A stretch of DNA of 64,000 nt, taken from the IMG/VR virus record IMGVR_UViG_3300024303_000011; one strand, 5' to 3'. Of the stretch, positions 1,816-16,741 are shown one piece after another. The DNA comes from a virus (lineage: Duplodnaviria > Heunggongvirae > Uroviricota > Caudoviricetes). The translations under genes and the position numbers were made by a program. The notes beneath the pieces were generated by a model. It saw nothing but the letters and a program-made list of their open reading frames with translations, was not told the DNA's origin and made no database searches. The first letter of the stretch is position 1. Each line of letters begins with the position of its first letter.

Positions 1816-1833
1816 GAACGTTAATTATATCTT

Positions 1834-1890: not shown

Positions 1891-1926
1891 GGATTGATTA
1901 TAAATAATATTTTGGAGGAAATCAAA

Positions 1927-4101: not shown

Positions 4102-4298
4102 CACGAGGCATGTATCTGCTAATGAGATTAAGTCTACGGATACTGATTTCAGAATGCCAAAAGAGCCTGTCATAGAAGATGCGGATACAGTTAATTCTAT
4201 GGTCCAAGCATACACGGAGTAGAGTGGGTTAACTTGCGATAATTCAAGCAGTATGCATAAGAGGATAGCAAGTGACAGCCGGAATAGACGGCAACAAT

Positions 4299-4431
4299 GC
4301 GGGATTGGTGGAATGGCAGACACCGGGGACTTGTTCGAGAGCCAGAGCGAAGTGAGGTCATCACTCACCTTGAGCACCAAAAATCCCCTGGTAGCAATAC
4401 CGTATCGGTTCGAGTCCGATATCCCGCACCA
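4299..4431 (+). tRNA. class II tRNA (long variable arm) with ~47-54 nt insertion in anticodon loop; anticodon UAA (Leu) or UGA (Ser) depending on junction; CCA encoded
   Basis: Acceptor GCGGGAT/ATCCCGC, anticodon stem GGGGA/TCCCC separated by 54 nt, variable hairpin GGTA-GCAA-TACC, T-arm ATCGG-TTCGAGT-CCGAT. Confidence 0.5.
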
Positions 4432-4433
4432 AA

Positions 4434-4552
4434 TAGTCACCAACAGCAACTAAATTGTCTTCGTCATAATTGAAGATGTAGCTTAGAGGTTAGAGCATCA
4501 GCCGTGAAAAGCTGAAGACGCTGGTTCGAATCCAGTCTTTAAACGGTGACTA
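4434..4552 (+). ncRNA. tRNA-like ncRNA element E: terminal stem TAGTCACC/GGTGACTA, bulge with AACAGCAACTAAATTG, D-arm, 8-nt anticodon-like loop (TCAGC-CGTGAAAA-GCTGA), T-arm GCTGG-TTCGAAT-CCAGT
   Basis: Does not fold as canonical tRNA (acceptor cannot pair) but retains D/T arms; Y-RNA (YrlA)-like layout. Confidence 0.4.
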
Positions 4553-4558
4553 GATTAT

Positions 4559-4633
4559 GGAGAATGAAGTGTAATGGTTTGCACTCCGGCCCTGGGAGCT
4601 GGAAGAGAGGTTCGATTCCTACATTTTCCACCA
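4559..4633 (+). tRNA. tRNA-Pro-like (anticodon UGG) with C33 and weak T-stem; CCA encoded
   Basis: Acceptor GGAGAAT/ATTTTCC, D-arm AGTG-TAATGGTTTG-CACT, anticodon arm CCGGC-CCTGGGA-GCTGG, T-loop TTCGATT. Confidence 0.4.
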
Positions 4634-4663
4634 TTATAAATATAATAAGGATCACGTATTAAA

Positions 4664-5122
4664 ATGGCACATTCAGGATACTCTGACGATTTTTGTATAG
4701 TATGTGGTAAGAGATTATCAAGAGGTCATTTATCACAATATTGTCAAATTCATTACAATGAACAAAGAAGAAAAGAAAAAATTGAAAAATGGCTAGAAAG
4801 CGGAGACACGGGAACGTCGGTAGACACAACAATTCGTGGTGTTATTAGGGATTATATATTAGAACAACAAAACAAATGTTGTGCAATATGTGGCATTAAA
4901 AATGAATGGAATGGAATGCAACTGAATTTTGTTCTTGATCATATTAATGGAGACGCATCTGAATCATCAAGAGACAATTTGCGTTTAATATGCCCAAACT
5001 GCGATAGTCAATTAGATACATATAAATCAAAAAATAAAAATTCTTCACGAACTAAAAGAAAAGAATTCTTAAAAAACTTAAATACATACTCAAAAAACAA
5101 AAACAATGGGGAGTTAGCCTAA
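4664..5122 (+). CDS. HNH homing-type endonuclease (Zn-ribbon + HNH)
   Basis: CIVCGK..C, VLDHINGD...NLRLICPNCD HNH motif; 3' end overlaps tRNA-Ser by 15 nt. Confidence 0.6.
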   Translation: MAHSGYSDDFCIVCGKRLSRGHLSQYCQIHYNEQRRKEKIEKWLESGDTGTSVDTTIRGVIRDYILEQQNKCCAICGIKNEWNGMQLNFVLDHINGDASESSRDNLRLICPNCDSQLDTYKSKNKNSSRTKRKEFLKNLNTYSKNKNNGELA

Positions 5123-5195
5123 TTGGTAAGGCAGCAGACTTGAAATCTGCCGTTGGCGAAAGCCATTCAGGGTTCGAGTCCCTGGCTCCCCGCCA
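5108..5195 (+). tRNA. tRNA-Ser (anticodon UGA), class II, CCA encoded
   Basis: Acceptor GGGGAGT/GCTCCCC, anticodon arm GCAGA-CTTGAAA-TCTGC, variable hairpin TGGC-GAAA-GCCA, T-arm CAGGG-TTCGAGT-CCCTG. Confidence 0.75.
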
Positions 5196-5199
5196 ATAT

Positions 5200-5286
5200 G
5201 CGAATGTGACGGAATAGGCAGACGAGGCAGACTCAAAATCTGTTGCTAGAAATAGCGTGTGAGTTCGAGTCTCACCATTCGCACCA
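5200..5286 (+). tRNA. tRNA-Leu (anticodon CAA), class II, CCA encoded
   Basis: Acceptor GCGAATG/CATTCGC, anticodon arm CAGA-CTCAAAA-TCTG, variable GCTAGAAATAGC, T-arm GTGAG-TTCGAGT-CTCAC. Confidence 0.75.
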
Positions 5287-5424
5287 GTCCCTCAGTATGG
5301 AGAGGTTTAAGAATAAGCCGATGACAAGGCAAGGAATAGTGCCATACCACTATTTGATAACCATTCATATTTCTGTATTGGTCTTACATCACATGTCCTA
5401 CAACATGCTCTTTGTGGGAGATCT

Positions 5425-5500
5425 GCGGTAGTAACTCAATTGGTAGAGTACCTGCCCTCCAAGCAGGATGTTGCGAGTTCGAGTCTCGTCTATCGCTCCA
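5425..5500 (+). tRNA. tRNA-Gly-like (anticodon UCC; loop CCTCCAA with C33), CCA encoded
   Basis: Acceptor GCGGTAG/CTATCGC, anticodon stem CCTGC/GCAGG, T-arm GCGAG-TTCGAGT-CTCGT. Alternative Trp reading rejected because a canonical Trp loop CTCCAAA exists at 6252. Confidence 0.5.
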
Positions 5501-5505
5501 ATTAT

Positions 5506-5580
5506 GCCCCTGTAGCTCAGTGGAAGAGCAACGCCCTTCTAAGGCGACGGTCAGGAGTTCGAATCTCTTCAGGGGTGCCA
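5506..5580 (+). tRNA. tRNA-Arg (anticodon UCU), CCA encoded
   Basis: Acceptor GCCCCTG/CAGGGGT, anticodon arm ACGCC-CTTCTAA-GGCGA, T-arm AGGAG-TTCGAAT-CTCTT. Confidence 0.75.
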
Positions 5581-5703
5581 GCGGAATATACGTCACTTCT
5601 GTCGTCGTTGCTCAGCGGATAGCCATTGGTAGTGGAGCGAGCAGTCATGACACACTGCGACCAATGGGTTAACAAGGAAGGCAATGGTTTATTCCGCTTC
5701 ATA

Positions 5704-5780
5704 TGGGACATTAGCTCAGCTGGTCAGAGCATCCGGCTCATAACCGGGCGGTCCAAAGTTCGAATCTTTGATGTCCCACC
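5704..5780 (+). tRNA. tRNA-Met/Ile2 (anticodon CAU), CCA encoded
   Basis: Acceptor GGGACAT/ATGTCCC, anticodon arm TCCGG-CTCATAA-CCGGG, T-arm CAAAG-TTCGAAT-CTTTG. Confidence 0.75.
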
Positions 5781-5784
5781 AATA

Positions 5785-5877
5785 CGGAGGAGTACCCAAG
5801 TAGGTGAAGGGGCGGGTTTGCTAAACCTGTAGGTCATCGCAAGGTGGCGCGTGGGTTCGAACCCCACCTCCTCCGCC
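5785..5877 (+). tRNA. tRNA-Ser (anticodon GCU), class II, CCA encoded
   Basis: Acceptor GGAGGAG/CTCCTCC, anticodon arm CGGGT-TTGCTAA-ACCTG, long variable arm, T-arm GTGGG-TTCGAAC-CCCAC. Confidence 0.75.
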
Positions 5878-6015
5878 AGAAGAGCATCTGTCTTATGCTC
5901 TGCTAAAAGCATAGTGAAGGCGATATATAACCATAGACTTTGGATAGTTATGATACGGTTAGAGACTATCGCTATTATTTATCTTAGCGCTGAGATTTTT
6001 AGTAGTCCGTTTTAT

Positions 6016-6090
6016 TGGGGTGTAGCCAAGCGGTAAGGCAGCGGACTTTGACTCCGCCATTCGCATGTTCGAATCATGCCATCCCAGCCA
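6016..6090 (+). tRNA. tRNA-Gln (anticodon UUG), U1-A72, CCA encoded
   Basis: Acceptor TGGGGTG/CATCCCA, anticodon arm GCGGA-CTTTGAC-TCCGC, T-arm GCATG-TTCGAAT-CATGC. Confidence 0.7.
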
Positions 6091-6251
6091 GTACGGTGGT
6101 CTTTGGTAGTAATCACGCACCCGTTAAAGAGCCAATTGACGAATTGGCAAAGTGGAAACTACATGCCATAACTTCCAAGTGTACATAAGAAGTTAAACGG
6201 TAACTACGGTTTGAGAGGATCTTGCGTAGTAAAACCCAATCCTCAGTTTAT

Positions 6252-6325
6252 AGGAGCATAGTTCAATGGTAGAATAAGAGTCTCCAAAACTCCTGATCGG
6301 GGTTCGACTCCCTGTGCTCCTGCCA
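6252..6325 (+). tRNA. tRNA-Trp (anticodon CCA; loop CTCCAAA), CCA encoded
   Basis: Acceptor AGGAGCA/TGCTCCT, D-arm GTTC-AATGGTA-GAAT, T-arm CGGGG-TTCGACT-CCCTG. Confidence 0.65.
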
Positions 6326-6587: not shown

Positions 6588-7634
6588 ATGAGCAAGTTTG
6601 TAGCAGCCCTTTTGGCTATGGTTATTCTGGTTACTGGCGGACTGATTATTTATGGCGCAACTCATGAGACGATTCCTGCTGGCTACGTTGGTTATGTTTA
6701 TGACCGTAACGCACGAGACGACGATAATGTGATTCCCGGAACATCCGTAATTAACGAAGCAAGAACAGGTCGAATTTCAATTAACCCAATCACTCAGGAT
6801 GTACTTACCTATCCCACTACTATTATTAGCTGCAACTGGACTGGTCTTGCAGAAGGTGATAACAAGAAGGATATGAGCATGCAGATTGCATCTCAGGAAG
6901 GCAAGAACATCGATGCTGATATTTATATTAGCGTAAGACCTCTCGACATCGAGAAAATCATTAAGTCTTTCGGTACAAAGTCCTTCGATTCCATTGTTGA
7001 TAACGATATCTATGGTCTTACTAAGGGTAAACTCTCTTCCGTGTCTCAGGCATATTCCGTTTATGATATCCAGTCTTCTAGAGTAGAGATCCAGTCTGAG
7101 GTATTTAACATCCTTTCCAGCACTCTAAACGACGTATATGGTGTTGAACTTGTCCGCCTTGAGATTGGTACTCTTATTCTCCCTGAAGATATCCAGGCTA
7201 AGATTGACCAGAAGACTCAGGCACAGAATGAGGTTGAACTCGCTAAGCTTGAGCGCGAGCGTCAGAATGAAGTGAATCAGCAGATCGTCGATCAGCAGAA
7301 GGCACAGTCTGAGCGTGAGATGATTCAGCGCCAGGCAGAAGCAGACGCGGCTGCATATGAAAAGCAGAAAGAAGCAGAAGCTCTTCTGGCAGTCTCCGAG
7401 GCAAATGTAAAGATCGCAGAGCAGGAGCTTGAGATCGCAAAGCTTGAGAAAGAAGCAGAACTCGAAAAGCAGAAGGGTTACACCACGGAGTACTTTAAGG
7501 ATAAGGAACTTGACGTAAAGATGGCTGCAGTAGAAGCAATCAACCCGACCGTGAAGACTATTATTACATCCGGTGAAGGAGAGGGCTTCGGTGCGCTCGT
7601 TGGTATCAAAGAAGTTCTTAATAGTATCGGCTAA
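6588..7634 (+). CDS. SPFH/band-7 (stomatin/prohibitin/flotillin-like) membrane protein with C-terminal coiled coil
   Basis: N-terminal TM, SPFH-like core, Glu/Lys/Gln-rich coiled coil (ELAKLERERQNE...). Confidence 0.55.
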   Translation: MSKFVAALLAMVILVTGGLIIYGATHETIPAGYVGYVYDRNARDDDNVIPGTSVINEARTGRISINPITQDVLTYPTTIISCNWTGLAEGDNKKDMSMQIASQEGKNIDADIYISVRPLDIEKIIKSFGTKSFDSIVDNDIYGLTKGKLSSVSQAYSVYDIQSSRVEIQSEVFNILSSTLNDVYGVELVRLEIGTLILPEDIQAKIDQKTQAQNEVELAKLERERQNEVNQQIVDQQKAQSEREMIQRQAEADAAAYEKQKEAEALLAVSEANVKIAEQELEIAKLEKEAELEKQKGYTTEYFKDKELDVKMAAVEAINPTVKTIITSGEGEGFGALVGIKEVLNSIG

Positions 7635-7648
7635 TACAACCACTAATG

Positions 7649-7683
7649 AAAGGAGAGTTTAACATGGCTCTCCTTTTATTTGT
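7649..7683 (+). terminator. rho-independent terminator (AAAGGAGAG...CTCTCCTTT + T-rich tail)
   Basis: 9-bp stem, 10-nt loop, followed by TATTTGTT. Confidence 0.6.
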
Positions 7684-7713
7684 TAATGAATTGTAAATAA
7701 TGGAATATAGTTA

Positions 7714-7741
7714 TTGACAAAGCTAAGATTTTAAGTATAAT
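7714..7741 (+). promoter_or_regulatory. sigma70-like promoter P3 (TTGACA-N16-TATAAT) with upstream 20-mer (7681-7700) and downstream ACAAAATGATTG (7751-7762)
   Basis: Same cassette as P2 with identical 14-nt spacing from the 20-mer. Confidence 0.6.
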
Positions 7742-7755
7742 ATATACAGTACAAA

Positions 7756-8805
7756 ATGATTGAAAGGTTTAAACGAATGACAATCAGTGAAATAAAATCC
7801 ATGTTAAAAACACCGGAATATGGATTCCTAAAAACGAATGAGCATCTTGGGCCTAATGTTATTTTACTAACGCTTGGTGGCAGCTACGCATATGGAACAA
7901 ATGTTGAAACATCAGATGTTGATATTCGTGGTTGCGCTTTGAACTCAAAAGAGGAAATTTTGACGAATAAAAATTTCGAACAGTTTGTCAATGAAGAAAC
8001 AGATACAACGATCTATAGCTTTAATAAGCTTATCAGTCTGCTTTCTAACGTAAACCCAAATACTATTGAACTGCTTGGATGTAAGCCCGAACATTATGTA
8101 TATCTTTCTCCAGTAGGTAAAGAGCTGCTGGAACATAAACATCTGTTTTTGTCTAAAAAGTGTGTACATTCTTTTGGCGGATATGCGAACGCACAGCTCA
8201 GACGTCTAGACAACAAAGCAGCGAGACTTGTTACGCAGACAGAACAAGAACATCATATTTTAAAAAGTATCGAAAATGCCTCATATACCTTCAAAGAGCA
8301 TTACTTCAAATATGACGATGAGGCCATCAAGCTATATATCGATAAATCAGAGTCTGAAGAATATGATACTGAAATCTTTATGGATGTAAATCTTAAGCAT
8401 TATCCTTTGCGGGACTACAAAGGAATGTGGTCTGTAATGCACAATGTTGTTAAAGAATACGGCAAGATCGGAAAGCGCAATTCTCATGCAATAGAGCATG
8501 GCAAACTTGGTAAGCACATGATGCATTTGGTCAGGCTGTATCTAATGTGTCTTGATATTCTTAACGATGGCGAAATTATTACATACAGAGAAAAAGATCA
8601 CGACTTCCTTATGAGTATTCGCAATGGTAAATATCTAGATGACAACAGACAGCCAACGCCTGAGTTCTTTGATATTGTTGATGACTTGGAGGCTAAGCTG
8701 GATGCGGCAAAACATAGTACGGATCTACCAGATAATCCTGATTATAAAAAGATCAATGAGTTCGTTGCTTCTGTGAATGAAAGAATTGTTAGAGGTGAAG
8801 TATAA
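7756..8805 (+). CDS. Pol-beta superfamily nucleotidyltransferase (GS...DxD), function unknown
   Basis: LTLGGSYAYGTNVETSDVDIRG NTase signature. ATG 7756 lies inside the conserved promoter-proximal motif, so true start may be ATG 7777 (MTISEIKS). Confidence 0.5.
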   Translation: MIERFKRMTISEIKSMLKTPEYGFLKTNEHLGPNVILLTLGGSYAYGTNVETSDVDIRGCALNSKEEILTNKNFEQFVNEETDTTIYSFNKLISLLSNVNPNTIELLGCKPEHYVYLSPVGKELLEHKHLFLSKKCVHSFGGYANAQLRRLDNKAARLVTQTEQEHHILKSIENASYTFKEHYFKYDDEAIKLYIDKSESEEYDTEIFMDVNLKHYPLRDYKGMWSVMHNVVKEYGKIGKRNSHAIEHGKLGKHMMHLVRLYLMCLDILNDGEIITYREKDHDFLMSIRNGKYLDDNRQPTPEFFDIVDDLEAKLDAAKHSTDLPDNPDYKKINEFVASVNERIVRGEV

Positions 8806-9161
8806 TGTTTGGATGGAATAAAAATAACAGTTATTCGACTGTTTCTGTAAATGGTAAAACGATTCGAGTAAACGGAAATAATATTACCGTTATCAATGAT
8901 AAGATTATTGTTGATGGCAAAGTGCTTGATGAATCAATGGACTGTAAGAATATTACCGTCATTGTTGAGGGAGATTGTAATAAACTCGATGCCGCAGGAG
9001 CAGTAACTGTTCAAGGTAATTGTGGTTCCGTGGATTGCAGTGGTAGTTGTACTATTCACGGTAATGTAACTGGTAATGTTGACGCTAGTGGCTCTGTTAC
9101 TTGTGGTGATGTTGGCGGAGACATTGATGCAAGCGGCAGTGTTAGATGTATTAGGAAATAA
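8805..9161 (+). CDS. small beta-helical repeat protein (bactofilin-like G-x-V repeats)
   Basis: Repeats NITVI..GKV..ITVIVEGD..AVTVQGN..TIHGNVTGNVDASGSV. Confidence 0.3.
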   Translation: MFGWNKNNSYSTVSVNGKTIRVNGNNITVINDKIIVDGKVLDESMDCKNITVIVEGDCNKLDAAGAVTVQGNCGSVDCSGSCTIHGNVTGNVDASGSVTCGDVGGDIDASGSVRCIRK

Positions 9162-9192
9162 TTGCAGAAATGCTTAAATAAGGAGAAATATT

Positions 9193-9741
9193 ATGAAAAC
9201 TTTAATTGTAATTGACATGCAGAATGACTTTATCACAGGTTCTCTTGGAACCAAAGAAGCACAGGCTATTGTACCTAACGTAAAAAAGAAGATCGATGAG
9301 TATCTGGAGCGTGGCGACGAAGTTATTTTTACCAGAGACACCCACGATGAGGACTACCTAAATACCAACGAAGGAAAGCATCTTCCTGTTAAGCATTGCA
9401 TCTTTGGCACCGAGGGTTGGGAGATCCACCACGATCTTGATGTTAAGGATTGCGAACATATTGACAAACATACTTTTGGTTGGCAGTTCTGGACTTCTAC
9501 TGAGTCTGCTTACGAAAATGACGAGGATGATACGTATTACTTCCGAGATCTTGAAGACATTGAGATCGTCGGTCTGTGTACGGATATCTGCGTGGTATCC
9601 AACGCGTTGATCCTTAAAGCAAATTATCCTTGGGCAAATATTACTGTGGACGCAAGCTGTTGCGCTAGTGTAACTCCTGAGAAGCACAAGGCAGCACTTG
9701 AGGTTATGAAGAGCTGTCAGATCAATGTAATCGGAGAGTAA
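9193..9741 (+). CDS. pncA: nicotinamidase (isochorismatase family)
   Basis: VIDMQNDF N-terminal motif, GLCTDICV catalytic Cys context. Confidence 0.65.
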   Translation: MKTLIVIDMQNDFITGSLGTKEAQAIVPNVKKKIDEYLERGDEVIFTRDTHDEDYLNTNEGKHLPVKHCIFGTEGWEIHHDLDVKDCEHIDKHTFGWQFWTSTESAYENDEDDTYYFRDLEDIEIVGLCTDICVVSNALILKANYPWANITVDASCCASVTPEKHKAALEVMKSCQINVIGE

Positions 9742-9743
9742 TA

Positions 9744-10274
9744 ATGAATACTTTTCAGAAGTTTATTGGCCATGCGCGAACCGTGCATAAGCATCGTGCA
9801 ATGGTGCGAAAACTATGTTTCAAATGCGGCCTCTATTGGCAGGGATTGACGCACGATCTCTCTAAGTATCATCCCGTTGAATTCTGGAATGGAGTCAAAT
9901 ACTACACTGGAACAGCATCTCCGCATCACGGGGAACGTAAAGACAAAGGATACTCAGATGCGTGGGTTCATCATCATAACAGAAACAAACACCATGTAGA
10001 GTATTGGCAGGATATTAATCCTAACACTGGTGTAAGTGTGCCTATCGAGATGCCTGAGAAGTATCTAAAAGAGATGATCTGTGATCGTGTAGCAGCTTCT
10101 ATGACATATCTAGGTGATAAATACTATAGTGCTGCACCTCTTGAATATTATGAAAGTCATAAGTACGAAAATAGATGGCATCATATGACACAAGAAAAGG
10201 TTGAGTATTATCTCGATAAAATTGCAAGACACGGATTTGAAAAAATTATGAGAGACATAGACCAAATGATATGA
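9744..10274 (+). CDS. His-rich hypothetical protein (possible metal-binding)
   Basis: HHGERKD...HHHNRNKHH cluster; no recognisable family. Confidence 0.3.
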   Translation: MNTFQKFIGHARTVHKHRAMVRKLCFKCGLYWQGLTHDLSKYHPVEFWNGVKYYTGTASPHHGERKDKGYSDAWVHHHNRNKHHVEYWQDINPNTGVSVPIEMPEKYLKEMICDRVAASMTYLGDKYYSAAPLEYYESHKYENRWHHMTQEKVEYYLDKIARHGFEKIMRDIDQMI

Positions 10275-10493
10275 CACTCATTGATATACTTTACTACATG
10301 GCTTATGCTACATTTGCCATAATTGGTATTGGCGTATTTATAGAATACTTAAAAAATATTTAAGGGAAATAATTAATTATGGAAACAATTATACTTGCTT
10401 ATATTGGACTTATGGGCGTTCTTGGTCTTGGCTTTATCCTTTTCGGTATTGTAGCAATCAAAGAATTGAATAAATGAAAGGAAATAATTGATT

Positions 10494-11717
10494 ATGATGA
10501 AACTGTCTCCCATTATTACCCATCTTACTGATACTGACCTGTATAAGTTCACTATGCTCCAGACCATGTTCCATCGTCATACTAATCTTAATGGCACTTA
10601 TATCTTCAAATGCCGCAATAATGACGTGAAGTTTACCGCAGAAATGGTGGAAGAAATCAATGCGCAGATTGACCACCTTTGCACTCTTCGTTTTACCGAT
10701 GAAGAACTTGACTATCTCGCGTCTCTGCGTTTCATCAAGCCTGACTTCGTTGAGTTCCTTCGCATCTGGCATCCTCTTCGTAGATATGTAGAAGCTTATA
10801 TGTCTGATTATGATGTTCATGGAACTAATCCAGAAGGAACACTCAATATCAAGGTAGAGGGCCCTCTCTTCAATACTATGATGTTTGAAATCTATCTCCT
10901 TGCTATTGTCAACGAAGTATATTTCCGTATGGAGTATAACTATCTTGACCTCGTTGATAGTGCGAGAAAGGAGCTTTACAGCAAACTTGTAGGATTTGTA
11001 CCTCCTGACCCTCTTTATACTTTCAACTTTGCGGAATTCGGCACCAGAAGACGCCTTAGCCGAGAGTGGCAGGATTATGTAATGACTGAGCTTCTCAAAA
11101 CCAAGCACTGTGTTGGCACTTCTAATGTCTATCTCGCTATGAAATATGGTATCAAGGCAATCGGCACCTACGCTCACGAATATGTTCAGATGTTCCAGGG
11201 CGTCCCCGGCATTCAGCTTGCATATACTAACAAGGCAGCTCTTGAAGAGTGGTTTGAAGAATACCAGGGTGACCTGGGAACCGCATTGACTGATACTCTT
11301 GGAACTGACCTGTTCCTGCGGGACTTCAACAAGCTTCAGGCGACTTGCTATACTGGTGTTCGCCATGACTCTGGTGACCCCTACGAGTGGGGCGAGAAGA
11401 TTATTGAACACTACCTAAAGCTTGGTATTGATCCTAAAACCAAGACCCTTCTGTTTAGCGATAGCCTTGATTTTGAAAAAGCTCAGGCGATCTACGATCA
11501 CTTTAATGGCCGCATTAATGTAAGCTTTGGTATTGGCACTTATCTCACTAACGATACTAATGTAGATCCTCTGAATATCGTCATTAAACTTCAGTATGTA
11601 AATGGTCATCCAGTAGCAAAACTGAGCGATGTTCCCGGTAAGACGATGTGTCAGGACGAGAACTATGCAGACTATTTGAAGCAGGCGGTTGATTATAGAC
11701 TGCGGGAAGGTATTTAA
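10494..11717 (+). CDS. pncB: nicotinate phosphoribosyltransferase
   Basis: N-terminal LTDTDLYKFTMLQ matches PncB LLDTDAYKLHMQQ; length ~408 aa. Track start 10488 is TTG; ATG 10494 preferred. Confidence 0.6.
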   Translation: MMKLSPIITHLTDTDLYKFTMLQTMFHRHTNLNGTYIFKCRNNDVKFTAEMVEEINAQIDHLCTLRFTDEELDYLASLRFIKPDFVEFLRIWHPLRRYVEAYMSDYDVHGTNPEGTLNIKVEGPLFNTMMFEIYLLAIVNEVYFRMEYNYLDLVDSARKELYSKLVGFVPPDPLYTFNFAEFGTRRRLSREWQDYVMTELLKTKHCVGTSNVYLAMKYGIKAIGTYAHEYVQMFQGVPGIQLAYTNKAALEEWFEEYQGDLGTALTDTLGTDLFLRDFNKLQATCYTGVRHDSGDPYEWGEKIIEHYLKLGIDPKTKTLLFSDSLDFEKAQAIYDHFNGRINVSFGIGTYLTNDTNVDPLNIVIKLQYVNGHPVAKLSDVPGKTMCQDENYADYLKQAVDYRLREGI

Positions 11718-11719
11718 TA

Positions 11720-11953
11720 ATGTGCATTGAAACAGTTGGTGAATTAAAACAAATGCTTAAAGAGCTTAACCTTGCGGATGATGCTCCAATTATTATGACA
11801 AGAGAATCATTAAGAGAGGCTCCCTATAGTGTTCCCGTGCGCCCGCTTTACATTTATACTGGCGTTATTGATTCAAAATATAATCAGTATGAACGACGAC
11901 TTGAAGCTTGTTATTCTGCTGATGGAAAATATGGATTGATGGTACTTGGATAA
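11720..11953 (+). CDS. hypothetical protein
   Basis: ORF with tight coupling to pncB stop. Confidence 0.3.
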   Translation: MCIETVGELKQMLKELNLADDAPIIMTRESLREAPYSVPVRPLYIYTGVIDSKYNQYERRLEACYSADGKYGLMVLG

Positions 11954-12120
11954 TGAATAAATGGATAAATAAGTTTCTTTGGTGGTTTCTTCATATTACT
12001 AAAAGAAATTGTAGGCATTGTTCTGTCTTTGATGAAGAAACTAACAAATGTAAAATATTTAATTGTTGTTTTCGCCCAGATGATGATTTTTGTATGCGTT
12101 GGATAAAGAAGGAGTAAAAA

Positions 12121-12687
12121 ATGACAGGTGTAATTCTATTTCGCGCCCAGCCTTTTCATAACGGCCACCTAGCGCAGATTAAACGTGCTTATAAAGATAT
12201 GCGGAAACTTGGTGGCGATTTGTATGTTCTAGTCGGTAGCGCCGATAAATTTGGCACTAAACGCAACCCTATTCCAATTGATATACGGCTTGATTTAATT
12301 AAAAGTAGTCTCAATGAAGTACTCAATTCAGATCAATTGAAACATATTGAGATAGTCCCTCTTAATGACCTTAGCGATGAAGCCAATAATACACATTCTT
12401 GGGGCGAATATCTTTATAGCAAAATGTGTGAATATACTGGCGATACTGATTTTGTCTTCTATTACAGTGACAAACCCGAAATCGCATTGAGTTGGTTCGG
12501 TGACAATGAACGAGAGCATATTTATTTCAAATTTCTTCCAAGAGTAGATAATGTGAATGCTACCGAAGTAAGAGGACTCCTTTATACTTGTGTTCTTGGC
12601 GATGCTATGAAATTGGAGCTCCTGCTTCCTAATTATGTTTATGGCAAAATTACTACACTTCATGATTATATTGTAAATGCGAGGTAA
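12121..12687 (+). CDS. NMN/NaMN adenylyltransferase-like nucleotidyltransferase (HxGH family)
   Basis: AQPFHNGH (H/TxGH) and C-terminal NATEVRG (ISSTxxR-like) motifs; AAGGAG RBS. Confidence 0.55.
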   Translation: MTGVILFRAQPFHNGHLAQIKRAYKDMRKLGGDLYVLVGSADKFGTKRNPIPIDIRLDLIKSSLNEVLNSDQLKHIEIVPLNDLSDEANNTHSWGEYLYSKMCEYTGDTDFVFYYSDKPEIALSWFGDNEREHIYFKFLPRVDNVNATEVRGLLYTCVLGDAMKLELLLPNYVYGKITTLHDYIVNAR

Positions 12688-12692
12688 AGAAA

Positions 12693-13469
12693 ATGTTTGA
12701 TGCAGTAAAAGCAAAAAATGATTGTGTGCAGTGGATACGCGATTGGTTTGAAGAGAATGGCAAAGATTGTAATGCGGTTATTGGCATCTCTGGTGGTAAG
12801 GATTCCACTGTTGTGGCTGCTTTGTGTGTTGAGGCACTTGGCAGGGATAGAGTTATTGGAGTATTGATGCCTAATGATATTCAAAATGATATAGCAGATG
12901 CTTTTAAGGTAGTTGAGCATCTTGATATTAAACACGCAGTGGTTGATATAAATAAAGCATATAAAGCTATTTTGAATAGTGTATTTTATTGTTCGCCTCG
13001 TGGAAATATGGGAAGACATATTATTCCTACAAATCAGGCGATAACCAATCTTCCTCCACGTATTCGTATGACTGTACTCTATGCAATGTCTCAGTCGTTG
13101 AACGGTCGTGTAGCTAATACATGCAACCTTTCTGAGGATTACGTAGGTTATAGCACCCGTTGGGGAGATTCCGTTGGAGACTTTAGCCCCCTTGCTAATC
13201 TTACCACGGATGAGGTAGTTGCTATTGGCGACGCTTGTGGGTTGCCCTATGAACTCACTCACAAAACTCCATCTGATGGCCTTTGTGGCAAAACAGATGA
13301 AAATAATCTTGGATTCACTTATGAAATACTAAATAAATATATCCTAACCGGCATATGTGAAAATGAAGCAGTAAAAGAAAAGATTGATAATCTACATAAC
13401 AAAAACTTGTTTAAACTTCAGCCTATACCTAGTTTTGTACCGATTGGTGTGCGCGGTTATGATGTTTAA
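12693..13469 (+). CDS. nadE: NH3-dependent NAD+ synthetase
   Basis: PP-loop GISGGKDSTV; length 258 aa. Confidence 0.65.
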   Translation: MFDAVKAKNDCVQWIRDWFEENGKDCNAVIGISGGKDSTVVAALCVEALGRDRVIGVLMPNDIQNDIADAFKVVEHLDIKHAVVDINKAYKAILNSVFYCSPRGNMGRHIIPTNQAITNLPPRIRMTVLYAMSQSLNGRVANTCNLSEDYVGYSTRWGDSVGDFSPLANLTTDEVVAIGDACGLPYELTHKTPSDGLCGKTDENNLGFTYEILNKYILTGICENEAVKEKIDNLHNKNLFKLQPIPSFVPIGVRGYDV

Positions 13470-13486
13470 TAAAAGGAGGTGCTAAT

Positions 13487-13690
13487 ATGGATTGGTCAAA
13501 AGCAACAGTATTAACAACAAAATTTCAAGAGATCAAAAAAGAATTAGATTTGGCTAGACCAAGAGATACTTCCATGTCAGCAGCAGAATGGAATGTATAT
13601 CAGTGCAGACAGGCAATCATCAAGCTATGTGATATCTTGGATGAAATGGCTAAAGATAACGTCTGTGAAAATAATTATGCCGAGCAGTAA
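13487..13690 (+). CDS. hypothetical protein
   Basis: AGGAGG RBS. Confidence 0.3.
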   Translation: MDWSKATVLTTKFQEIKKELDLARPRDTSMSAAEWNVYQCRQAIIKLCDILDEMAKDNVCENNYAEQ

Positions 13691-13802
13691 AAAATTTAAT
13701 CGGTTCGGATATGTGTATACAAAAATACGCAACAAACATCCGCAATGGTCCAAAGGGCAAATACGTGCTTGTACGATATATGCGATTAGTAGGAGGAAAT
13801 GA

Positions 13803-15758
13803 ATGGAAAAGATAGAACGAATTAAAGAGTTGGTTGAGCTACTTAATCATTACAGAAATGAATATTATAATAACCAACGCAGTGAAATTTCTGATTTTGA
13901 ATATGATCTATTTTATGATGAGCTATCAGAGCTAGAGAGTGAAACTGGATTCATTATGGCCACTTCTCCTACTCAGACTGTTGGCTATGAAGTCAGATCG
14001 GAACTAACTAAAGTAAGACATAACCATCCAATGCTTTCACTTGACAAGACGAAAGAAATTGGCGATGTAGTTAAGTTTCTTGATGGAAGAGACGGCGTAG
14101 TGATGGCCAAAATGGACGGACTAACATGTTCACTTCGATATCTAGATGGAGAACTTGTTTCTGCGGAGACGAGGGGTGATGGAGAAACCGGTGAAGATAT
14201 TTTACACTGCGCTAAGACCATTAAAAACATTCCTTTGCATATTAACTGTAAGGATGAGATTATTGTAGATGGTGAGGTTATCATTTCATATGATGATTTC
14301 GAAAAGATTAACTCAACACTCCCCGAAGATGAAAAATATAAACATCCTCGCAATCTCGCATCAGGATCTATTCGTCAGCTTGATAGTGCTATAGCAGCAC
14401 AGAGAAATATGCAGTTTGTTGCGTGGAAGTTAATTAAGGGTTGTAACCTTAACTCTTTTACAGATAGATGGATAATAATGGGAGAACTAGGGTTTGATGT
14501 AGTCCCAATGATTCCTCTTAATAGGGAATGTGTTGATTATGATAGACTTCAACACGTAATTATGCTCATTCAAAAAATTGCGCAGAATTATGGTTATCCA
14601 ATTGATGGTTGCGTAATTGGTTATGATGACGTTGCCTACGGTGACTCTCTTGGTGCAACCGGGCATCACCTAAGAAGTCAGCTTGCATATAAGTTTTATG
14701 ACGAGCTATACGAAACCAAATTGCTTGATATTGAATGGACAATGGGCAAAACAAACACTCTCACGCCAACTGCTGTTTTTGAAACAGTTAATATTGATGG
14801 AACCGACGTAAGCAAAGCGTCATTGCACAACATTTCCATCATCAAGAAACTAGGACTGACTAATAATTGCACCGTAAAAGTTTATAAAGCCAACCAAATC
14901 ATTCCGCAGATTGACTCTTGCCTCCAAGATGGCGATTCTCCTATAATTCCGCCTAAGTACTGCCCGGTTTGCGGACATGAAACAGAAGTTGTGAAGGAGA
15001 ATGAATCCGAAGTTTTGGTATGTAAAAATAATAACTGTTCAGGCAAATTACTTGGCAGATTGAAGTTCTTCGTATCTAAACCCGCGATGAATATCGACAG
15101 CTTAAGCGAAGCCACTCTGGAAAAATTCATTGAACTTGGATGGATTACAAACTTCCTTGATATTTATTATTTAGACGTAAATAAATCAGACATGATGAAG
15201 CTTGATGGATTTGGCAAGAAGTCTGTGGATAAACTCCTCAATGCAATTGAACAAAGTAAAAACGTTAAACTAGAAAACTTTATCACGGCACTCTCTATTG
15301 ACGGCGTCGGAAAGTCAGCCTCCAAGACTATTTCCGCAGCTTTTGACGGCGATTTCGACAAACTACTTAAGGCATTTAAGGATGATTTCAATTGGTCCGA
15401 TTTAGAGGACATTGGCAGTATTACATCTTCAAATATCACGAAGTACTTTGCAGAAAACGAGAAAGAAATTTGCGATCTTGCCGCTGAGATGAACTTTATT
15501 AAACCAGAAAAAGTCGAAATCAAAGCAAATCCATTTAGCGGGAAAACCCTATGCGTGACAGGAAAATTGACGAAATTCACCAGAGATAGTATTAATGAAA
15601 AAATTGTTTCTCTTGGTGCAAAATCTGCCGGATCAGTTTCTTCAAAAACAGATTACTTAATTACAAATGAACAAAGTGGCAGTAGTAAATACAAGAAAGC
15701 CGTTGAATTAAATATTCCAATCATTACAGAAGAAGAGTTTCTTAAGATGATCTCTTGA
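13803..15758 (+). CDS. ligA: NAD-dependent DNA ligase
   Basis: Adenylation motif AKMDGL (KxDG), Zn-finger CPVCG...C..NNC, C-terminal BRCT-like; 651 aa. Confidence 0.75.
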   Translation: MEKIERIKELVELLNHYRNEYYNNQRSEISDFEYDLFYDELSELESETGFIMATSPTQTVGYEVRSELTKVRHNHPMLSLDKTKEIGDVVKFLDGRDGVVMAKMDGLTCSLRYLDGELVSAETRGDGETGEDILHCAKTIKNIPLHINCKDEIIVDGEVIISYDDFEKINSTLPEDEKYKHPRNLASGSIRQLDSAIAAQRNMQFVAWKLIKGCNLNSFTDRWIIMGELGFDVVPMIPLNRECVDYDRLQHVIMLIQKIAQNYGYPIDGCVIGYDDVAYGDSLGATGHHLRSQLAYKFYDELYETKLLDIEWTMGKTNTLTPTAVFETVNIDGTDVSKASLHNISIIKKLGLTNNCTVKVYKANQIIPQIDSCLQDGDSPIIPPKYCPVCGHETEVVKENESEVLVCKNNNCSGKLLGRLKFFVSKPAMNIDSLSEATLEKFIELGWITNFLDIYYLDVNKSDMMKLDGFGKKSVDKLLNAIEQSKNVKLENFITALSIDGVGKSASKTISAAFDGDFDKLLKAFKDDFNWSDLEDIGSITSSNITKYFAENEKEICDLAAEMNFIKPEKVEIKANPFSGKTLCVTGKLTKFTRDSINEKIVSLGAKSAGSVSSKTDYLITNEQSGSSKYKKAVELNIPIITEEEFLKMIS

Positions 15759-15782
15759 CAAAATCAATCGCATCATATAAAA
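15756..15782 (+). promoter_or_regulatory. promoter P4 (TTGACA-N15-TATAAA) with downstream ACAGAATGATTG (15790-15801)
   Basis: Hexamers plus conserved downstream motif. Confidence 0.45.
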
Positions 15783-15813
15783 TAAACACGACAGAATGAT
15801 TGGGAGTGATAAA

Positions 15814-16056
15814 ATGTTCATATGTTTGGATTGTGGAAAAATTTTTGAAGTGCCGAAGAAATATACAGAAACCCATGGTATGGATCATGGCCCATTTGAA
15901 GTATTTTATGCTTGTCCAGAATGTGGCGGAGAATATGCGGAAACTTTGCAGTGCAACTGTTGTGGTCATTGGATTACAGGAGATTTTATTACCGTCGATG
16001 ATGGTAATATATATTGCGAAAATTGTTATTGTCGTCATAATATCGGTGATAAATAA
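15814..16056 (+). CDS. Zn-ribbon protein (two CxxC pairs)
   Basis: GGGAG RBS then ATG 15814 (track start 15796 lies in motif); CLDCG...CPECG...CNCCG...CENC. Confidence 0.4.
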   Translation: MFICLDCGKIFEVPKKYTETHGMDHGPFEVFYACPECGGEYAETLQCNCCGHWITGDFITVDDGNIYCENCYCRHNIGDK

Positions 16057-16071
16057 AAAAGGAGACATTAT

Positions 16072-16332
16072 ATGAATTTACAAGACATTGCCCAGGAAAT
16101 GTTAAAAGAAGCAGACAAATACGCCGTTCTAAAAGAAACCGAAATTCCAAAACTTGTTCCAGTTAGAACGCATAAAAAGAAGCGCATCAAAAAGAAATGG
16201 CTTAAGAGATATGGAACAAAGGTAGTATATGAAAAGAAGATGGCCAAGGTTATTGACGTTACAATGGATCTAGTGGTTGAATTTTGTCACGAAAAAGGAT
16301 TGCCTCTACCAGACGAATTATTAGGACGATAA
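16072..16332 (+). CDS. small basic hypothetical protein
   Basis: ORF with RBS AAGGAGA. Confidence 0.3.
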   Translation: MNLQDIAQEMLKEADKYAVLKETEIPKLVPVRTHKKKRIKKKWLKRYGTKVVYEKKMAKVIDVTMDLVVEFCHEKGLPLPDELLGR

Positions 16333-16382
16333 ATTATATATAATGCATATATTATATCGTTAAAGTTTGTGCAGTTCGTCAA

Positions 16383-16411
16383 TTTACAATACAAAATGAT
16401 TGTGATATAAT
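16383..16411 (+). promoter_or_regulatory. promoter P5 (TTTACA-N17-TATAAT) with ACAAAATGATTG in spacer; paralogue of P0
   Basis: TTCGTCAATTTACAATACAAAATGATTGTGATATAAT vs P0 TTCGTCAATAGACAAGACAAAATGATTATGCTATAAT. Confidence 0.5.
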
Positions 16412-16441
16412 ATTATAAATCAATATAGAAAGGAAATAAAT

Positions 16442-16741
16442 ATGGAAGAAGAAAAGGTATCAGCTGCGGTTGCAGAAATTAAAAATGCCAATGAAGACGA
16501 TCTAAAGAAGGTCATCACTCAGTGGTTTGAATCCACGAGAACATCTGGAATGAAAATTGGAGCAAAGATGATTAGTGCTGCAGTTTTTGCCGCAATTCAA
16601 AAGCACACTGTAAAGCCCGGCAAAGTTTCTTTGCGCGATTATGAAAGAATGACGGCGGAGATTAAGAAACTGATTTCTGTACAGCTTACAGAACAAAATG
16701 ATTCGGAAGAGGTAAATGAAGATGACGGAACAGCAGAGTAA
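16442..16741 (+). CDS. hypothetical protein
   Basis: ORF with RBS. Confidence 0.3.
   Translation: MEEEKVSAAVAEIKNANEDDLKKVITQWFESTRTSGMKIGAKMISAAVFAAIQKHTVKPGKVSLRDYERMTAEIKKLISVQLTEQNDSEEVNEDDGTAE

What the first reader, a model, noticed from the sequence alone, without database searches (positions are those of the whole stretch)
9193..15758. Complete nicotinamide-to-NAD+ Preiss-Handler pathway (PncA, PncB, NadD-like, NadE) clustered with NAD-dependent LigA: candidate NAD+ reconstitution anti-defence module
Seen in sequence: four consecutive genes carry the hallmark motifs of nicotinamidase (VIDMQNDF / C-D-I-C-V), nicotinate phosphoribosyltransferase (TDLYKFTM), an HxGH adenylyltransferase (FHNGH, ISST-like) and PP-loop NAD synthetase (SGGKDS). 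An NAD-dependent ligase (KMDG) follows. Established knowledge: phages counter NAD-depleting defences (Thoeris, DSR, SIR2 and TIR effectors) with NAD reconstitution pathways; the routes described so far use ADPR-PP/Namat or NadV/NMNAT. Inference: a four-enzyme route starting from nicotinamide, the direct product of NADase defences, would be a distinct third solution. It would also serve the phage's own NAD-consuming ligase.
Basis: partly seen in the sequence, partly recalled or inferred. Interest (0 to 1): 0.75.

Follow-up and report, generated by a model that had tools for sequence, protein, structure and literature searches.

The report
Phage nicotinamide-to-NAD salvage gene cluster
A roughly 171-kb gut phage of spore-forming Firmicutes carries apparently intact genes for all four enzymes that turn nicotinamide into NAD+, next to its NAD-dependent DNA ligase; such phage clusters, and the idea that they offset NAD-destroying defences, were already published in 2024 and remain untested.

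Summary
Window 9193-15758 encodes PncA, PncB, an HxGH adenylyltransferase, an ammonia-dependent NadE and LigA, with catalytic residues intact and invariant across phage homologues. First, the genes are not consecutive. A conserved DUF5662 gene and several small ORFs are interleaved. Second, the adenylyltransferase is a divergent, almost phage-only relative of NadM/archaeal NMNAT, not NadD.

The cluster is phage-borne, on a circularly permuted 170.7-kb contig with tail genes, a tRNA array and an integrase. It recurs in IMG/VR. Of 23 PncB-anchored viral loci, 21 have PncA, 18 NadE and 15 an adenylyltransferase (NadD-type, NadM-type or fused to NadE). LigA lies nearby in only 1 of 23.

The most likely function is Preiss-Handler salvage: Nam to Na, NaMN, NaAD, then NAD+. 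This would sustain NAD+ during infection.

The novelty claim fails. Li et al. 2024 described phage pncB-nadD-nadE clusters, their frequent LigA and a counter-defence hypothesis. The name NARP3 now belongs to PnuC+NadR. An anti-defence role is plausible but untested. The only unexplained part is DUF5662, which stays linked to these genes in at least five gene orders.

Verdict: a new member of a known kind, of moderate to low interest.

The parts
7714..7773 (+). Candidate promoter (TTGACA-16-TATAAT, 12/12) plus a conserved leader. It is the likely start of the transcription unit that runs through RlaP, ORF118, the NAD genes and LigA.
   Evidence: One search gives the perfect consensus match. One search shows the leader repeated at 15776-15813 and 16382-16402 (families D1/D3), and a hairpin at 7633-7692 just upstream. 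These are consensus matches only; no expression data.
9193..9741 (+). PncA-type nicotinamidase (182 aa): nicotinamide to nicotinate plus NH3.
   Evidence: PF00857 at 3e-30. Best PDB relatives are nicotinamidases 5ZN8/6A8L, 1ILW and 3O90. Triad D8/K92/C133 and metal ligands D49/H51/H68 align with P. horikoshii PncA and are invariant in 26 distinct phage homologues. The E. coli-type equivalog NF008623 scores only 41 bits against a cutoff of 174.
9744..10274 (+). DUF5662 protein (176 aa), a conserved accessory gene of unknown function.
10271..10477 (+). Two tiny hydrophobic ORFs (30 aa at 10271-10363, 32 aa at 10379-10477) in the DUF5662-PncB gap.
   Evidence: Called as genes on the identical JGI contig. 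Sequence read. No Rfam element here. Significance unknown.
10494..11717 (+). PncB nicotinate phosphoribosyltransferase (407 aa): nicotinate + PRPP (+ATP) to NaMN.
   Evidence: NF003704 509 bits (cutoff 379) and TIGR01514 442 bits (cutoff 270). 316 bits to P. aeruginosa PncB2, PDB 1YIR. Y16, K17, R184, R185, H227, E228, D291 and S292 are invariant in all homologues aligned at those columns, of 31 phage sequences.
11720..12117 (+). Two small ORFs (77 aa at 11720-11953; Cys-rich 54 aa at 11953-12117).
   Evidence: No Pfam, NCBIfam or PHROG hit. Not found in the 23 related loci. Probably lineage-specific filler.
12121..12687 (+). NadM/archaeal-type pyridine-mononucleotide adenylyltransferase (188 aa, no Nudix domain). 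Inferred reaction: NaMN + ATP to NaAD.
   Evidence: PF01467 at 7e-06. Best NCBIfam hits are NadM/archaeal NMNAT, below their cutoffs. The AF2 model has pLDDT 87.5. Top Foldseek hits are NadM 2QJO/2QJT and archaeal NMNAT 1M8K/4YP7 at TM about 0.7. HxGH residues (H13, G15, H16) and A147/R151 of the second motif are invariant in 30 homologues. In related clusters the same slot holds NadD-type enzymes or an adenylyltransferase fused to NadE.
12693..13469 (+). Single-domain, ammonia-dependent NAD+ synthetase NadE (258 aa). Inferred reaction: NaAD + NH3 + ATP to NAD+.
   Evidence: TIGR00552 159 bits (cutoff 64) and PF02540 at 1e-49, with no glutaminase domain. The PP-loop SGGKDS is conserved (S33, G35, D37, S38 invariant; G34 in 23 of 24). 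Best PDB hits are P. horikoshii 2E18, then F. tularensis 3FIU. In an NJ tree it nests beside NadEs fused to or partnered with NadD-type enzymes.
13487..13690 (+). Small ORF (67 aa), no known family.
   Evidence: Searches give no hits.
13803..15758 (+). NAD+-dependent DNA ligase LigA (651 aa), an NAD+ consumer.
   Evidence: NF005932 560 bits (cutoff 369). Full-length alignment to E. coli LigA 2OWO with KxDG (KMDG), domain Ia residues Y22/D32/Y35/D36 conserved (H23 to Y), the Cys4 zinc finger and BRCT.
15755..15813 (+). Next promoter-like site and conserved leader, marking the likely end of the unit.
   Evidence: 11/12 match; repeat families D1/D3.

Best explanation
This is a phage-encoded Preiss-Handler NAD+ salvage operon.

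Proposed steps:
1. PncA deamidates nicotinamide to nicotinate.
2. PncB condenses nicotinate with PRPP, driven by ATP, to give NaMN.
3. A phage-specific NadM-like adenylyltransferase converts NaMN to NaAD.
4. The ammonia-dependent NadE amidates NaAD to NAD+.

The genes are probably expressed from the promoter at 7714 together with LigA. The module would raise or hold the NAD+ pool of the infected Firmicute cell. That supplies the phage's own ligase. Because the route starts from nicotinamide and PRPP rather than ADP-ribose, it would also tend to offset NAD+-cleaving defences.

Shown here: enzyme family identities, intact catalytic residues, phage location and conserved clustering. Inferred: substrate order, NaMN use by the adenylyltransferase, co-transcription and any anti-defence benefit. 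I put the biochemical pathway at about 0.8 and a measurable anti-defence effect at about 0.4. DUF5662 is a linked accessory of unknown role.
For: - Family assignments with curated cutoffs passed for PncB, NadE and LigA.
- PncA triad and metal site intact. Catalytic residues of PncA, PncB and NadE are conserved (nearly all invariant) across 24-31 phage homologues.
- The adenylyltransferase fold matches NadM/archaeal NMNAT, with invariant HxGH and second-motif residues.
- Gene neighbourhood: of 23 PncB-anchored viral loci, 21 have PncA, 18 NadE and 13 a separate adenylyltransferase, plus 2 with adenylyltransferase-NadE fusion ORFs. L070 has a tight PncA-PncB-NadM-NadE operon.
- NadD-type and NadM-type enzymes occupy the same slot in different clusters.
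- The window's NadE clusters with NadEs fused to or partnered with NadD-type enzymes, which favours the NaAD-amidating order.
- Phage context: tail genes, tape measure, integrase, tRNAs, and a 170,737-bp contig in permuted form in two samples.
- The adenylyltransferase family is almost absent from 185,579 species genomes.
- PRPP-based NARP2 is insensitive to the form of the ADPR product (bioRxiv 10.64898/2026.01.28.702374).
Against: - There is no experimental evidence for this route in any phage in the literature searched.
- The adenylyltransferase scores far below every curated NMNAT/NadM cutoff, and its NaMN/NMN preference cannot be read from sequence.
- The window's PncA scores below the E. 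coli-type equivalog cutoff.
- The route costs PRPP plus up to three ATP per NAD+ and has four steps, so it may be too slow to outrun an activated NADase.
- From general knowledge, removing nicotinamide could relieve product inhibition of SIR2-type NADases.
- LigA adjacency is not conserved: 1 of 23 loci, and about 14-22 kb apart in the relatives checked.
- The phage has a serine integrase, so the genes could instead benefit lysogens.
- Co-transcription rests only on consensus promoter matches.
Confidence: 0.7

Rival explanations
1. The enzymes are the same, but the role is general metabolic support or lysogenic conversion rather than counter-defence. The module would boost NAD+ supply for replication and ligation, or give a niacin-salvage capacity to a host or lysogen that lacks it, whether or not any NADase defence is present.
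For: - The cluster sits among nucleotide and replication genes: LigA, guanylate kinase, NT5C, NrdD/G and dUTPase.
- The phage encodes a large serine integrase.
- A host-type sigma-70 consensus promoter lies upstream.
- Li et al. 2024 report that phage and host NAD pathways are often complementary.
- Other surveys annotate pncA, pncB, nadM and nadE as auxiliary metabolic genes.
Against: - This rival does not exclude an anti-defence benefit.
- The cluster lies in a region that also holds a tRNA array and RNA-repair-type genes (Pnkp-like, RlaP, TROVE-like). Such genes are usually read as counter-measures.
- Starting the pathway at nicotinamide, the NADase product, fits reconstitution. PncA is present in 21 of 23 loci.
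Confidence: 0.4
2. The pathway runs in the Francisella order. NadE acts as an NMN synthetase (NaMN to NMN), and the NadM-like enzyme then adenylates NMN to NAD+.
For: - The adenylyltransferase is NadM/archaeal-type, a family that uses NMN well.
- The second-best solved relative of the window's NadE is F. tularensis NadE, PDB 3FIU (108 bits). That NadE homologue has adapted as an NMN synthetase where NadM replaces NadD (PMC3376133).
Against: - The best solved relative is P. horikoshii NadE (117 bits).
- Archaeal NadM is bifunctional on NMN and NaMN, and M. jannaschii NadE showed no appreciable NMN synthetase activity.
- The window's NadE is 54-63% identical to, and clusters with, NadEs partnered with or fused to NadD-type enzymes. 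This implies NaAD as substrate.
- The NJ tree has no bootstrap support.
Confidence: 0.15
3. The 188-aa HxGH protein is not part of the NAD route. It would be some other nucleotidyltransferase, and the phage would rely on host NadD for the adenylation step.
For: - It has only weak, sub-threshold matches to NMNAT models.
- Eight of 23 related loci show no adenylyltransferase within 8 kb of PncB.
- Sources label homologues variously, including as phosphopantetheine adenylyltransferase.
Against: - The top fold matches are all NMN/NaMN adenylyltransferases.
- It sits immediately upstream of NadE, separated by a 5-base intergenic gap.
- Homologues recur inside NAD clusters.
- The slot is filled by NadD-type enzymes or NadE fusions elsewhere.
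- Some homologues carry NadM-style Nudix or NrtR domains.
Confidence: 0.08
4. The region is bacterial chromosome, either host DNA beside a prophage or a mis-assembly, and not phage cargo.
For: - All five enzymes are ordinary bacterial housekeeping families.
- An integrase is present.
Against: - Phage-type genes lie on both sides, on the same strand and with uniform GC.
- The identical 170,737-bp contig appears in two samples with different rotation, as expected for a complete phage genome.
- There are 23 IMG/VR contigs with the same cluster.
- The adenylyltransferase family was found on only 2 MAG contigs among 185,579 species genomes.
Confidence: 0.02

Closest known systems
Preiss-Handler 'biosynthetic gene clusters' of gut NAD-jumbo phages (Li et al. 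2024, Microbiome, PMC11662467; for example Kuafu_71 pncB-nadD-nadE)
   Same: Both are phage-borne, physically clustered pncB, adenylyltransferase and nadE genes that give a complete deamidated salvage route. Phage pncA is noted in that paper. An NAD-dependent LigA is frequent in the same genomes (90 of 174). The paper already proposes supply for phage NAD-consuming enzymes and counter-defence against NAD+ depletion.
   Different: This genome is about 171 kb, below the 200-kb jumbo threshold. The adenylyltransferase is a divergent NadM-like protein rather than NadD. PncA is part of the cluster, so the route starts at nicotinamide. A DUF5662 gene is embedded in the cluster. LigA is directly adjacent.
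NARP2 (Nampt/NadV + Nmnat; Vibrio phage KVP40; Osterman et al. 2024)
   Same: Both rebuild NAD+ from nicotinamide and PRPP, independent of ADP-ribose. Both use an NMNAT-superfamily adenylyltransferase. NARP2 is experimentally shown to counter NADase defences.
   Different: NARP2 has two amidated steps through NMN. The window has no Nampt. Its phosphoribosyltransferase passes the curated PncB cutoffs, and the route needs deamidation by PncA and re-amidation by NadE. That makes four enzymes and more ATP. Anti-defence activity is untested for this route.
NARP1 (Adps + Namat) and NARP3 (PnuC + NadR)
   Same: Both are phage operons that restore NAD+. Namat belongs to the same broad phosphoribosyltransferase superfamily as PncB (from general knowledge).
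   Different: The profile scans of the cluster genes and of the other larger window ORFs surveyed returned no PRPS-like Adps, PnuC transporter or NadR kinase domain. The substrates differ: ADPR for NARP1 and imported nicotinamide riboside for NARP3.
Cellular Preiss-Handler salvage (bacterial pncA-pncB-nadE operons; archaeal NadM + NadE; Francisella NadE*/NadM variant)
   Same: The four chemical steps and enzyme families are the same. Pairing a NadM-type adenylyltransferase with a short ammonia-dependent NadE mirrors archaea (PMC3376133).
   Different: This version is carried by a phage. The adenylyltransferase clade is essentially phage-restricted. It has no Nudix domain, unlike bacterial NadM. 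The extra DUF5662 gene is present.

Membership tests
Nicotinamidase PncA (isochorismatase superfamily) | Catalytic triad Asp-Lys-Cys | tested here: met
   D8, K92 and C133 align with D10/K94/C133 of P. horikoshii PncA. They are invariant in 26 phage homologues.
Nicotinamidase PncA (isochorismatase superfamily) | Metal-binding Asp/His/His site that separates nicotinamidases from other isochorismatase-like hydrolases | tested here: met
   D49, H51 and H68 align with D52/H54/H71 of 1ILW/1IM5. They are invariant in 26 homologues.
Nicotinamidase PncA (isochorismatase superfamily) | Score above the curated equivalog cutoff (NF008623) | tested here: not met
   41 bits against a cutoff of 174. That model is E. 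coli-type. The best solved relatives are still nicotinamidases.
PncB nicotinate phosphoribosyltransferase (TIGR01514 / NF003704) | Score above curated cutoffs over the full length, with both NAPRTase domains | tested here: met
   442 bits against 270 and 509 against 379. PF17767 and PF04095 are both present.
PncB nicotinate phosphoribosyltransferase (TIGR01514 / NF003704) | Conserved GTxAHE histidine (the autophosphorylated His of enteric PncB, from general knowledge) | tested here: met
   H227 in GTYAHE aligns with GTMAHE of P. aeruginosa PncB2. It is invariant in 31 homologues.
NadD (bacterial NaMN adenylyltransferase) | Closest sequence and fold relatives are NadD, with a GxFxPxHxGH ... ISSTxxR signature of NadD type | tested here: not met
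   No NadD model is among the NCBIfam hits. NadD structures rank below NadM and archaeal NMNAT. True NadD-type genes occur in sister clusters L013-L017.
NadM / archaeal NMNAT | Rossmann-like nucleotidyltransferase fold with (G)RFQPFHxGH and a second (I)SxTxxR motif | tested here: met
   The motifs are FRAQPFHNGH and VNATEVR. Top Foldseek hits are 2QJO, 1M8K, 4YP7 and 2QJT, with query-normalised TM 0.66-0.73. The motif residues are invariant.
NadM / archaeal NMNAT | Score above curated family cutoffs; C-terminal Nudix domain in bacterial NadM | tested here: not met
   38-43 bits against cutoffs of 127-397. The protein is 188 aa with no Nudix domain. It is therefore a divergent single-domain relative.
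NadM / archaeal NMNAT | Adenylyltransferase activity on NMN and/or NaMN | not testable with these tools
   Needs enzyme assays.
NH3-dependent NAD+ synthetase NadE | PP-loop SGGxDS, a single synthetase domain without glutaminase, and a score above the curated cutoff | tested here: met
   SGGKDS at residues 33-38. TIGR00552 scores 159 bits against 64. Only PF02540-type domains are present.
NAD+-dependent DNA ligase LigA | KxDG adenylation lysine, NMN-binding domain Ia, OB fold, Cys4 zinc finger, HhH and BRCT; score above cutoff | tested here: met
   560 bits against 369. The domains are (Nlig-Ia). Full-length alignment to E. coli LigA shows KMDG, four of five domain Ia residues and the four cysteines.
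NARP2 (phage NAD reconstitution pathway 2) | Nampt (nicotinamide phosphoribosyltransferase) paired with Nmnat | tested here: not met
   The phosphoribosyltransferase is PncB by curated cutoffs. It matches the phage Nampt PHROG only weakly (phrog_448, 6e-27).
NARP1 / NARP3 | Adps + Namat, or PnuC + NadR | tested here: not met
   No such domains among the annotated ORFs of the cluster or the surveyed neighbours.
'NAD-jumbo phage' (Li et al. 2024) | At least one complete NAD+ synthesis pathway encoded by the phage | tested here: met
   All four steps are encoded.
'NAD-jumbo phage' (Li et al. 2024) | Genome larger than 200 kb | tested here: not met
   Contigs of 170,737 bp in two samples, circularly permuted relative to each other.
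Phage anti-defence system (functional class) | Restores phage plating and NAD+ levels against an NADase defence | not testable with these tools
   Requires infection assays and metabolite measurements.

The most novel reading that the evidence does not exclude
The conserved unit would be a five-gene module in which DUF5662 is a new metal-dependent hydrolase working with the Preiss-Handler enzymes. It might process an ADP-ribose-derived product or an immune signal, or feed the ribose-phosphate half back towards PRPP. The whole module would then be a fourth, experimentally demonstrable NAD+ reconstitution pathway against NADase defences, including those that make non-canonical ADPR products.
Probability: 0.12. 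Interest if true: 0.7.

Novelty: new member of a known kind. Interest (0 to 1): 0.35.

Why it matters
If the module works as inferred, phages well below jumbo size in gut Firmicutes carry a full nicotinamide-to-NAD+ route. That route does not depend on ADP-ribose. It could therefore blunt any NAD+-cleaving defence, whatever product the defence leaves behind.

A laboratory test would add a fourth reconstitution route to NARP1-3. It would also assign function to a phage-specific NadM-like adenylyltransferase clade.

The repeated linkage of DUF5662 gives a concrete handle on a family that is large (about 3,400 clusters at 50% identity) and absent from the literature searched.

The basic idea is already published, so the gain is incremental rather than conceptual.

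Tried and rejected
- **Riboswitch or other regulatory RNA in the cluster.** An Rfam E-value scan of 7600-16500 found nothing. The whole-window gathering scan found only tRNAs.
- **DUF5662 function.**
  - Profile searches against PDB sequences gave nothing, with either the close or the diverse alignment.
  - Pfam secondary hits were only noise.
  - hhalign against the two HD-domain proteins of the window gave probability at or below about 1%.
  - The afdb50 library was unavailable.
  - No paper mentions DUF5662.
- **Host identification by prophage search.** The genome scan found only two MAG contigs, from Bacilli and Acutalibacteraceae. The host is inferred only loosely, from SleB-type hydrolase and XhlA hits.
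- **Nucleotide similarity to GenBank phages.** Only short 70-73% patches to uncultured faecal phages and to the Clostridium phage c-st ligase.
- **PncB as Namat or Nampt.** Considered and rejected on the curated PncB cutoffs and the absence of Adps.
- **Specificity determinants of F. tularensis NMN synthetase.** The primary paper is not held. I used neighbourhood, fusion and tree evidence instead.
- **LigA as a conserved partner.** Rejected.
- **RlaP as a conserved partner.** Not found near PncB in the related loci.

Full report
**What is in the sequence**

Between 9193 and 15758 all long ORFs are on the + strand. Profile searches give the following assignments.

| Coordinates | Protein | Main evidence |
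|---|---|---|
| 9193-9741 | PncA-like isochorismatase-family hydrolase | PF00857, 3e-30 |
| 9744-10274 | DUF5662 | 2e-33 |
| 10494-11717 | PncB | NF003704 509 bits (cutoff 379); TIGR01514 442 (cutoff 270) |
| 12121-12687 | HxGH nucleotidyltransferase | PF01467, 7e-06 |
| 12693-13469 | Single-domain NadE | TIGR00552 159 bits (cutoff 64) |
| 13803-15758 | LigA | NF005932 560 bits (cutoff 369) |

Small ORFs without family hits lie in between: 30 and 32 aa in the DUF5662-PncB gap, 77 and 54 aa after PncB, and 67 aa before LigA. The genes are not 'four consecutive genes'.

**Are the enzymes intact?**

- *PncA.* It aligns with solved nicotinamidases (B. subtilis 5ZN8/6A8L, P. horikoshii 1ILW, S. pneumoniae 3O90). 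The Asp-Lys-Cys triad (D8, K92, C133) and the Asp/His/His metal site (D49, H51, H68) are conserved. All six residues are invariant in 26 distinct phage homologues.
- *PncB.* It aligns end to end with P. aeruginosa PncB2 (316 bits). The GTxAHE histidine (H227) and other motif residues are invariant in 31 homologues.
- *NadE.* The PP-loop is conserved in 24 homologues (four of its five residues invariant, G34 in 23 of 24). There is no glutaminase domain.
- *LigA.* It aligns over its full length with E. coli LigA. It has KMDG, four of the five domain Ia residues, the four zinc-finger cysteines and BRCT.

**The adenylyltransferase**

Its best sequence matches are M. jannaschii and M. thermautotrophicum NMNAT and the N-terminal domain of NadM. 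All are weak: about 40 bits to the NCBIfam NMNAT/NadM models and 12-25 bits in the PDB sequence search, far below the curated cutoffs.

An AlphaFold2 model from 30 homologues is confident (pLDDT 87.5). Its top Foldseek hits are NadM (2QJO, 2QJT, 2R5W) and archaeal NMNAT (1M8K, 4YP5-7), with query-normalised TM 0.66-0.73. NadD structures rank lower.

H13, G15 and H16 of the HxGH motif are invariant in the family, as are A147 and R151 of the VNATEVR motif.

The family looks phage-restricted. There were 196 metagenomic relatives but only two MAG contigs among 185,579 species genomes. The protein is therefore a divergent single-domain NadM-like enzyme, not NadD.

**Phage context**

- The window carries a tail module with a tape measure, Dit-like and tail proteins.
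- It also has 9-13 tRNAs, NrdD/G, dUTPase and a large serine integrase.
- A SleB-type hydrolase and an XhlA-like protein point to a spore-forming Firmicute host.
- The exact adenylyltransferase occurs on 170,737-bp contigs in two JGI samples. The locus sits at different positions in the two, as expected for a complete, circularly permuted genome.
- GC content is uniform across the cluster.

**Transcription unit**

A perfect sigma-70 consensus lies at 7714-7741, with a conserved leader. The leader is repeated at 15755-15813 and at 16383-16442. A hairpin at 7633-7692 precedes the first site.

This suggests one unit from RlaP through LigA. The evidence is sequence-only.

**Is the cluster conserved?**

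A PncB-anchored scan of IMG/VR returned 23 loci at 44-76% identity. Within ±8 kb:

| Partner of PncB | Loci (of 23) |
|---|---|
| PncA | 21 |
| NadE | 18 |
| NadM-type adenylyltransferase, separate gene | 7 |
| NadD-type adenylyltransferase, separate gene | 6 |
| Adenylyltransferase fused in frame to NadE | 2 |
| DUF5662 | 8 |
| LigA | 1 |

Further points:

- One MAG contig has a tight PncA-PncB-NadM-NadE operon (L070).
- Other variants fuse the adenylyltransferase to Nudix, or to Nudix plus an NrtR winged-helix domain.
- Non-orthologous enzymes in the same slot, plus the fusion to NadE, are good evidence that the 188-aa protein performs the adenylation step.
- In the two closer relatives checked, LigA lies about 14-22 kb from the NAD genes. 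LigA adjacency is therefore a feature of this lineage only.

**Order of the steps**

With a NadM-type enzyme two orders are known (PMC3376133):

- the canonical order (bifunctional NadM with an NaAD-amidating NadE, as in Acinetobacter and as inferred for archaea): NaMN to NaAD to NAD+;
- the Francisella order: NaMN to NMN to NAD+.

The window's NadE is closest to P. horikoshii NadE, then to F. tularensis NadE. However, it is 54-63% identical to NadEs that sit beside or are fused to NadD-type enzymes. It also joins them in a neighbour-joining tree, which has no bootstrap support. I therefore favour the canonical order and keep the Francisella order at about 0.15.

**DUF5662**

- The gene stays next to NAD-salvage genes in at least five different arrangements.
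- However, 28 of 41 DUF5662-anchored viral loci lack NAD genes within 6 kb. About ten of them sit near TROVE-like and Pnkp-like genes.
- The family has about 3,400 clusters at 50% identity.
- Fusions join it to 2-thiouracil desulfurase, HAD phosphatases (one of the RNA-repair 'Swiss army knife' type), DMP19 and a PLP decarboxylase.
- The invariant residues form an H..HD..H..H..D pattern. No profile, hhalign or structural search supports a fold assignment, and the model is poor over these motifs.
- Its role is unresolved.

**Comparison with the literature**

- NARP1 (Adps+Namat) and NARP2 (Nampt+Nmnat) are described by Osterman et al. Their preprint mentions no Pnc or NadE genes.
- NARP3 is PnuC+NadR.
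- Li et al. 2024 found 174 gut jumbo phages with complete salvage or Preiss-Handler pathways. They showed clustered pncB-nadD-nadE, mentioned phage pncA and found LigA in 90 of 174. [quoted passage not shown]
- Other surveys list pncA, pncB, nadM and nadE as viral auxiliary genes.
- Among 50,697 GenBank phage records only 13 contain a PncB homologue. These are mostly huge or uncultured phages. In Atu_ph07, PncB lies near a cytidyltransferase and a Nudix gene. That cytidyltransferase is the best viral structural match to the window's enzyme.
- I found no experimental test of the Preiss-Handler route as a counter-defence.

**Verdict**

The biochemical interpretation is well supported. The cluster is a further example of a class already published, together with the same functional hypothesis.

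What is specific here:
- the sub-jumbo genome size;
- the phage-restricted NadM-like adenylyltransferase;
- PncA as a near-constant partner of PncB;
- the recurrent DUF5662 gene.

The anti-defence role remains plausible, at about 0.4, but untested. A general NAD-supply or lysogen-benefit role is equally compatible with the data.

Noticed in passing
window 76-3465 (+): ORF 76-978, RNA elements 1332-1449 and 1457-1572, ORF 1894-3465: A Pnkp-like kinase/HD protein is followed by two tRNA-like RNAs and then a DUF2828/DUF7788 (TROVE/Ro60-like) protein. The RNAs have intact acceptor, D and T arms but a 50-56-nt insertion in place of the anticodon loop. They have weak YrlA hits of 24.6 and 19.2 bits, below the gathering score. 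This looks like a phage Ro60-like plus Y-RNA module. The DUF2828+Pnkp pair recurs in other viral contigs.
   Followed up: partly
window 37811-55842 (-): ORFs of 3295 aa and 2314 aa match consecutive parts of one tape-measure profile (phrog_4211 positions 433-721, then 719-974). They are separated by a 1.2-kb insert that carries an HNH homing-endonuclease ORF (44919-45869). This may be a single tape measure gene of about 5,600 aa split by a mobile element. Rfam found no intron there.
   Followed up: partly
window 7736-7773, 15776-15813, 16382-16402 (+): Three copies of a promoter-like site share a conserved downstream leader (ATATACAGTACAAAATGATTG-like). They are probably phage middle or early promoters that delimit transcription units.
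   Followed up: partly
L002 8020-9342 and L020 9079-10539; L010 5959-7383; L021 6786-7967 and 9696-10265: Related phage clusters carry single ORFs that fuse an adenylyltransferase to NAD synthetase. Others carry a Nudix + NrtR winged-helix + adenylyltransferase fusion, a NadM-style adenylyltransferase + Nudix protein, and a weak Macro-domain ORF.
   Followed up: partly
window 4026-6325 (+), plus 4472-4541 and 4560-4629: A tRNA array. ARAGORN finds 9 tRNAs: Lys, Ser x2, Leu, Gly, Arg, Met, Gln and Trp. The Rfam tRNA model adds two more hits that ARAGORN misses.
   Followed up: no
window 10271-10477 (+): Two tiny ORFs (30 and 32 aa) encode hydrophobic, membrane-like peptides in the gap between DUF5662 and PncB. 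They are called as genes on the JGI contig.
   Followed up: no
window 7756-9161 (+): An RlaP-family nucleotidyltransferase (RNA-repair associated) and a 118-aa repeat-rich ORF sit between the promoter and PncA. RlaP is not found near PncB in the related loci.
   Followed up: partly
proteins P0264, P0267, P0278, P0288, P0362, P0383, P0289, P0269: DUF5662 occurs fused to 2-thiouracil desulfurase (three times), to HAD phosphatases including the 'Swiss army knife' RNA-repair HAD, to DMP19, and to an Orn/DAP/Arg decarboxylase. This hints at a nucleotide- or RNA-end-processing role.
   Followed up: partly
window 24832-26772 (+) and about 27-28 kb: A large serine recombinase (integrase) sits at the point where gene orientation and GC skew switch. 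This suggests a temperate lifestyle for a phage of about 171 kb.
   Followed up: no
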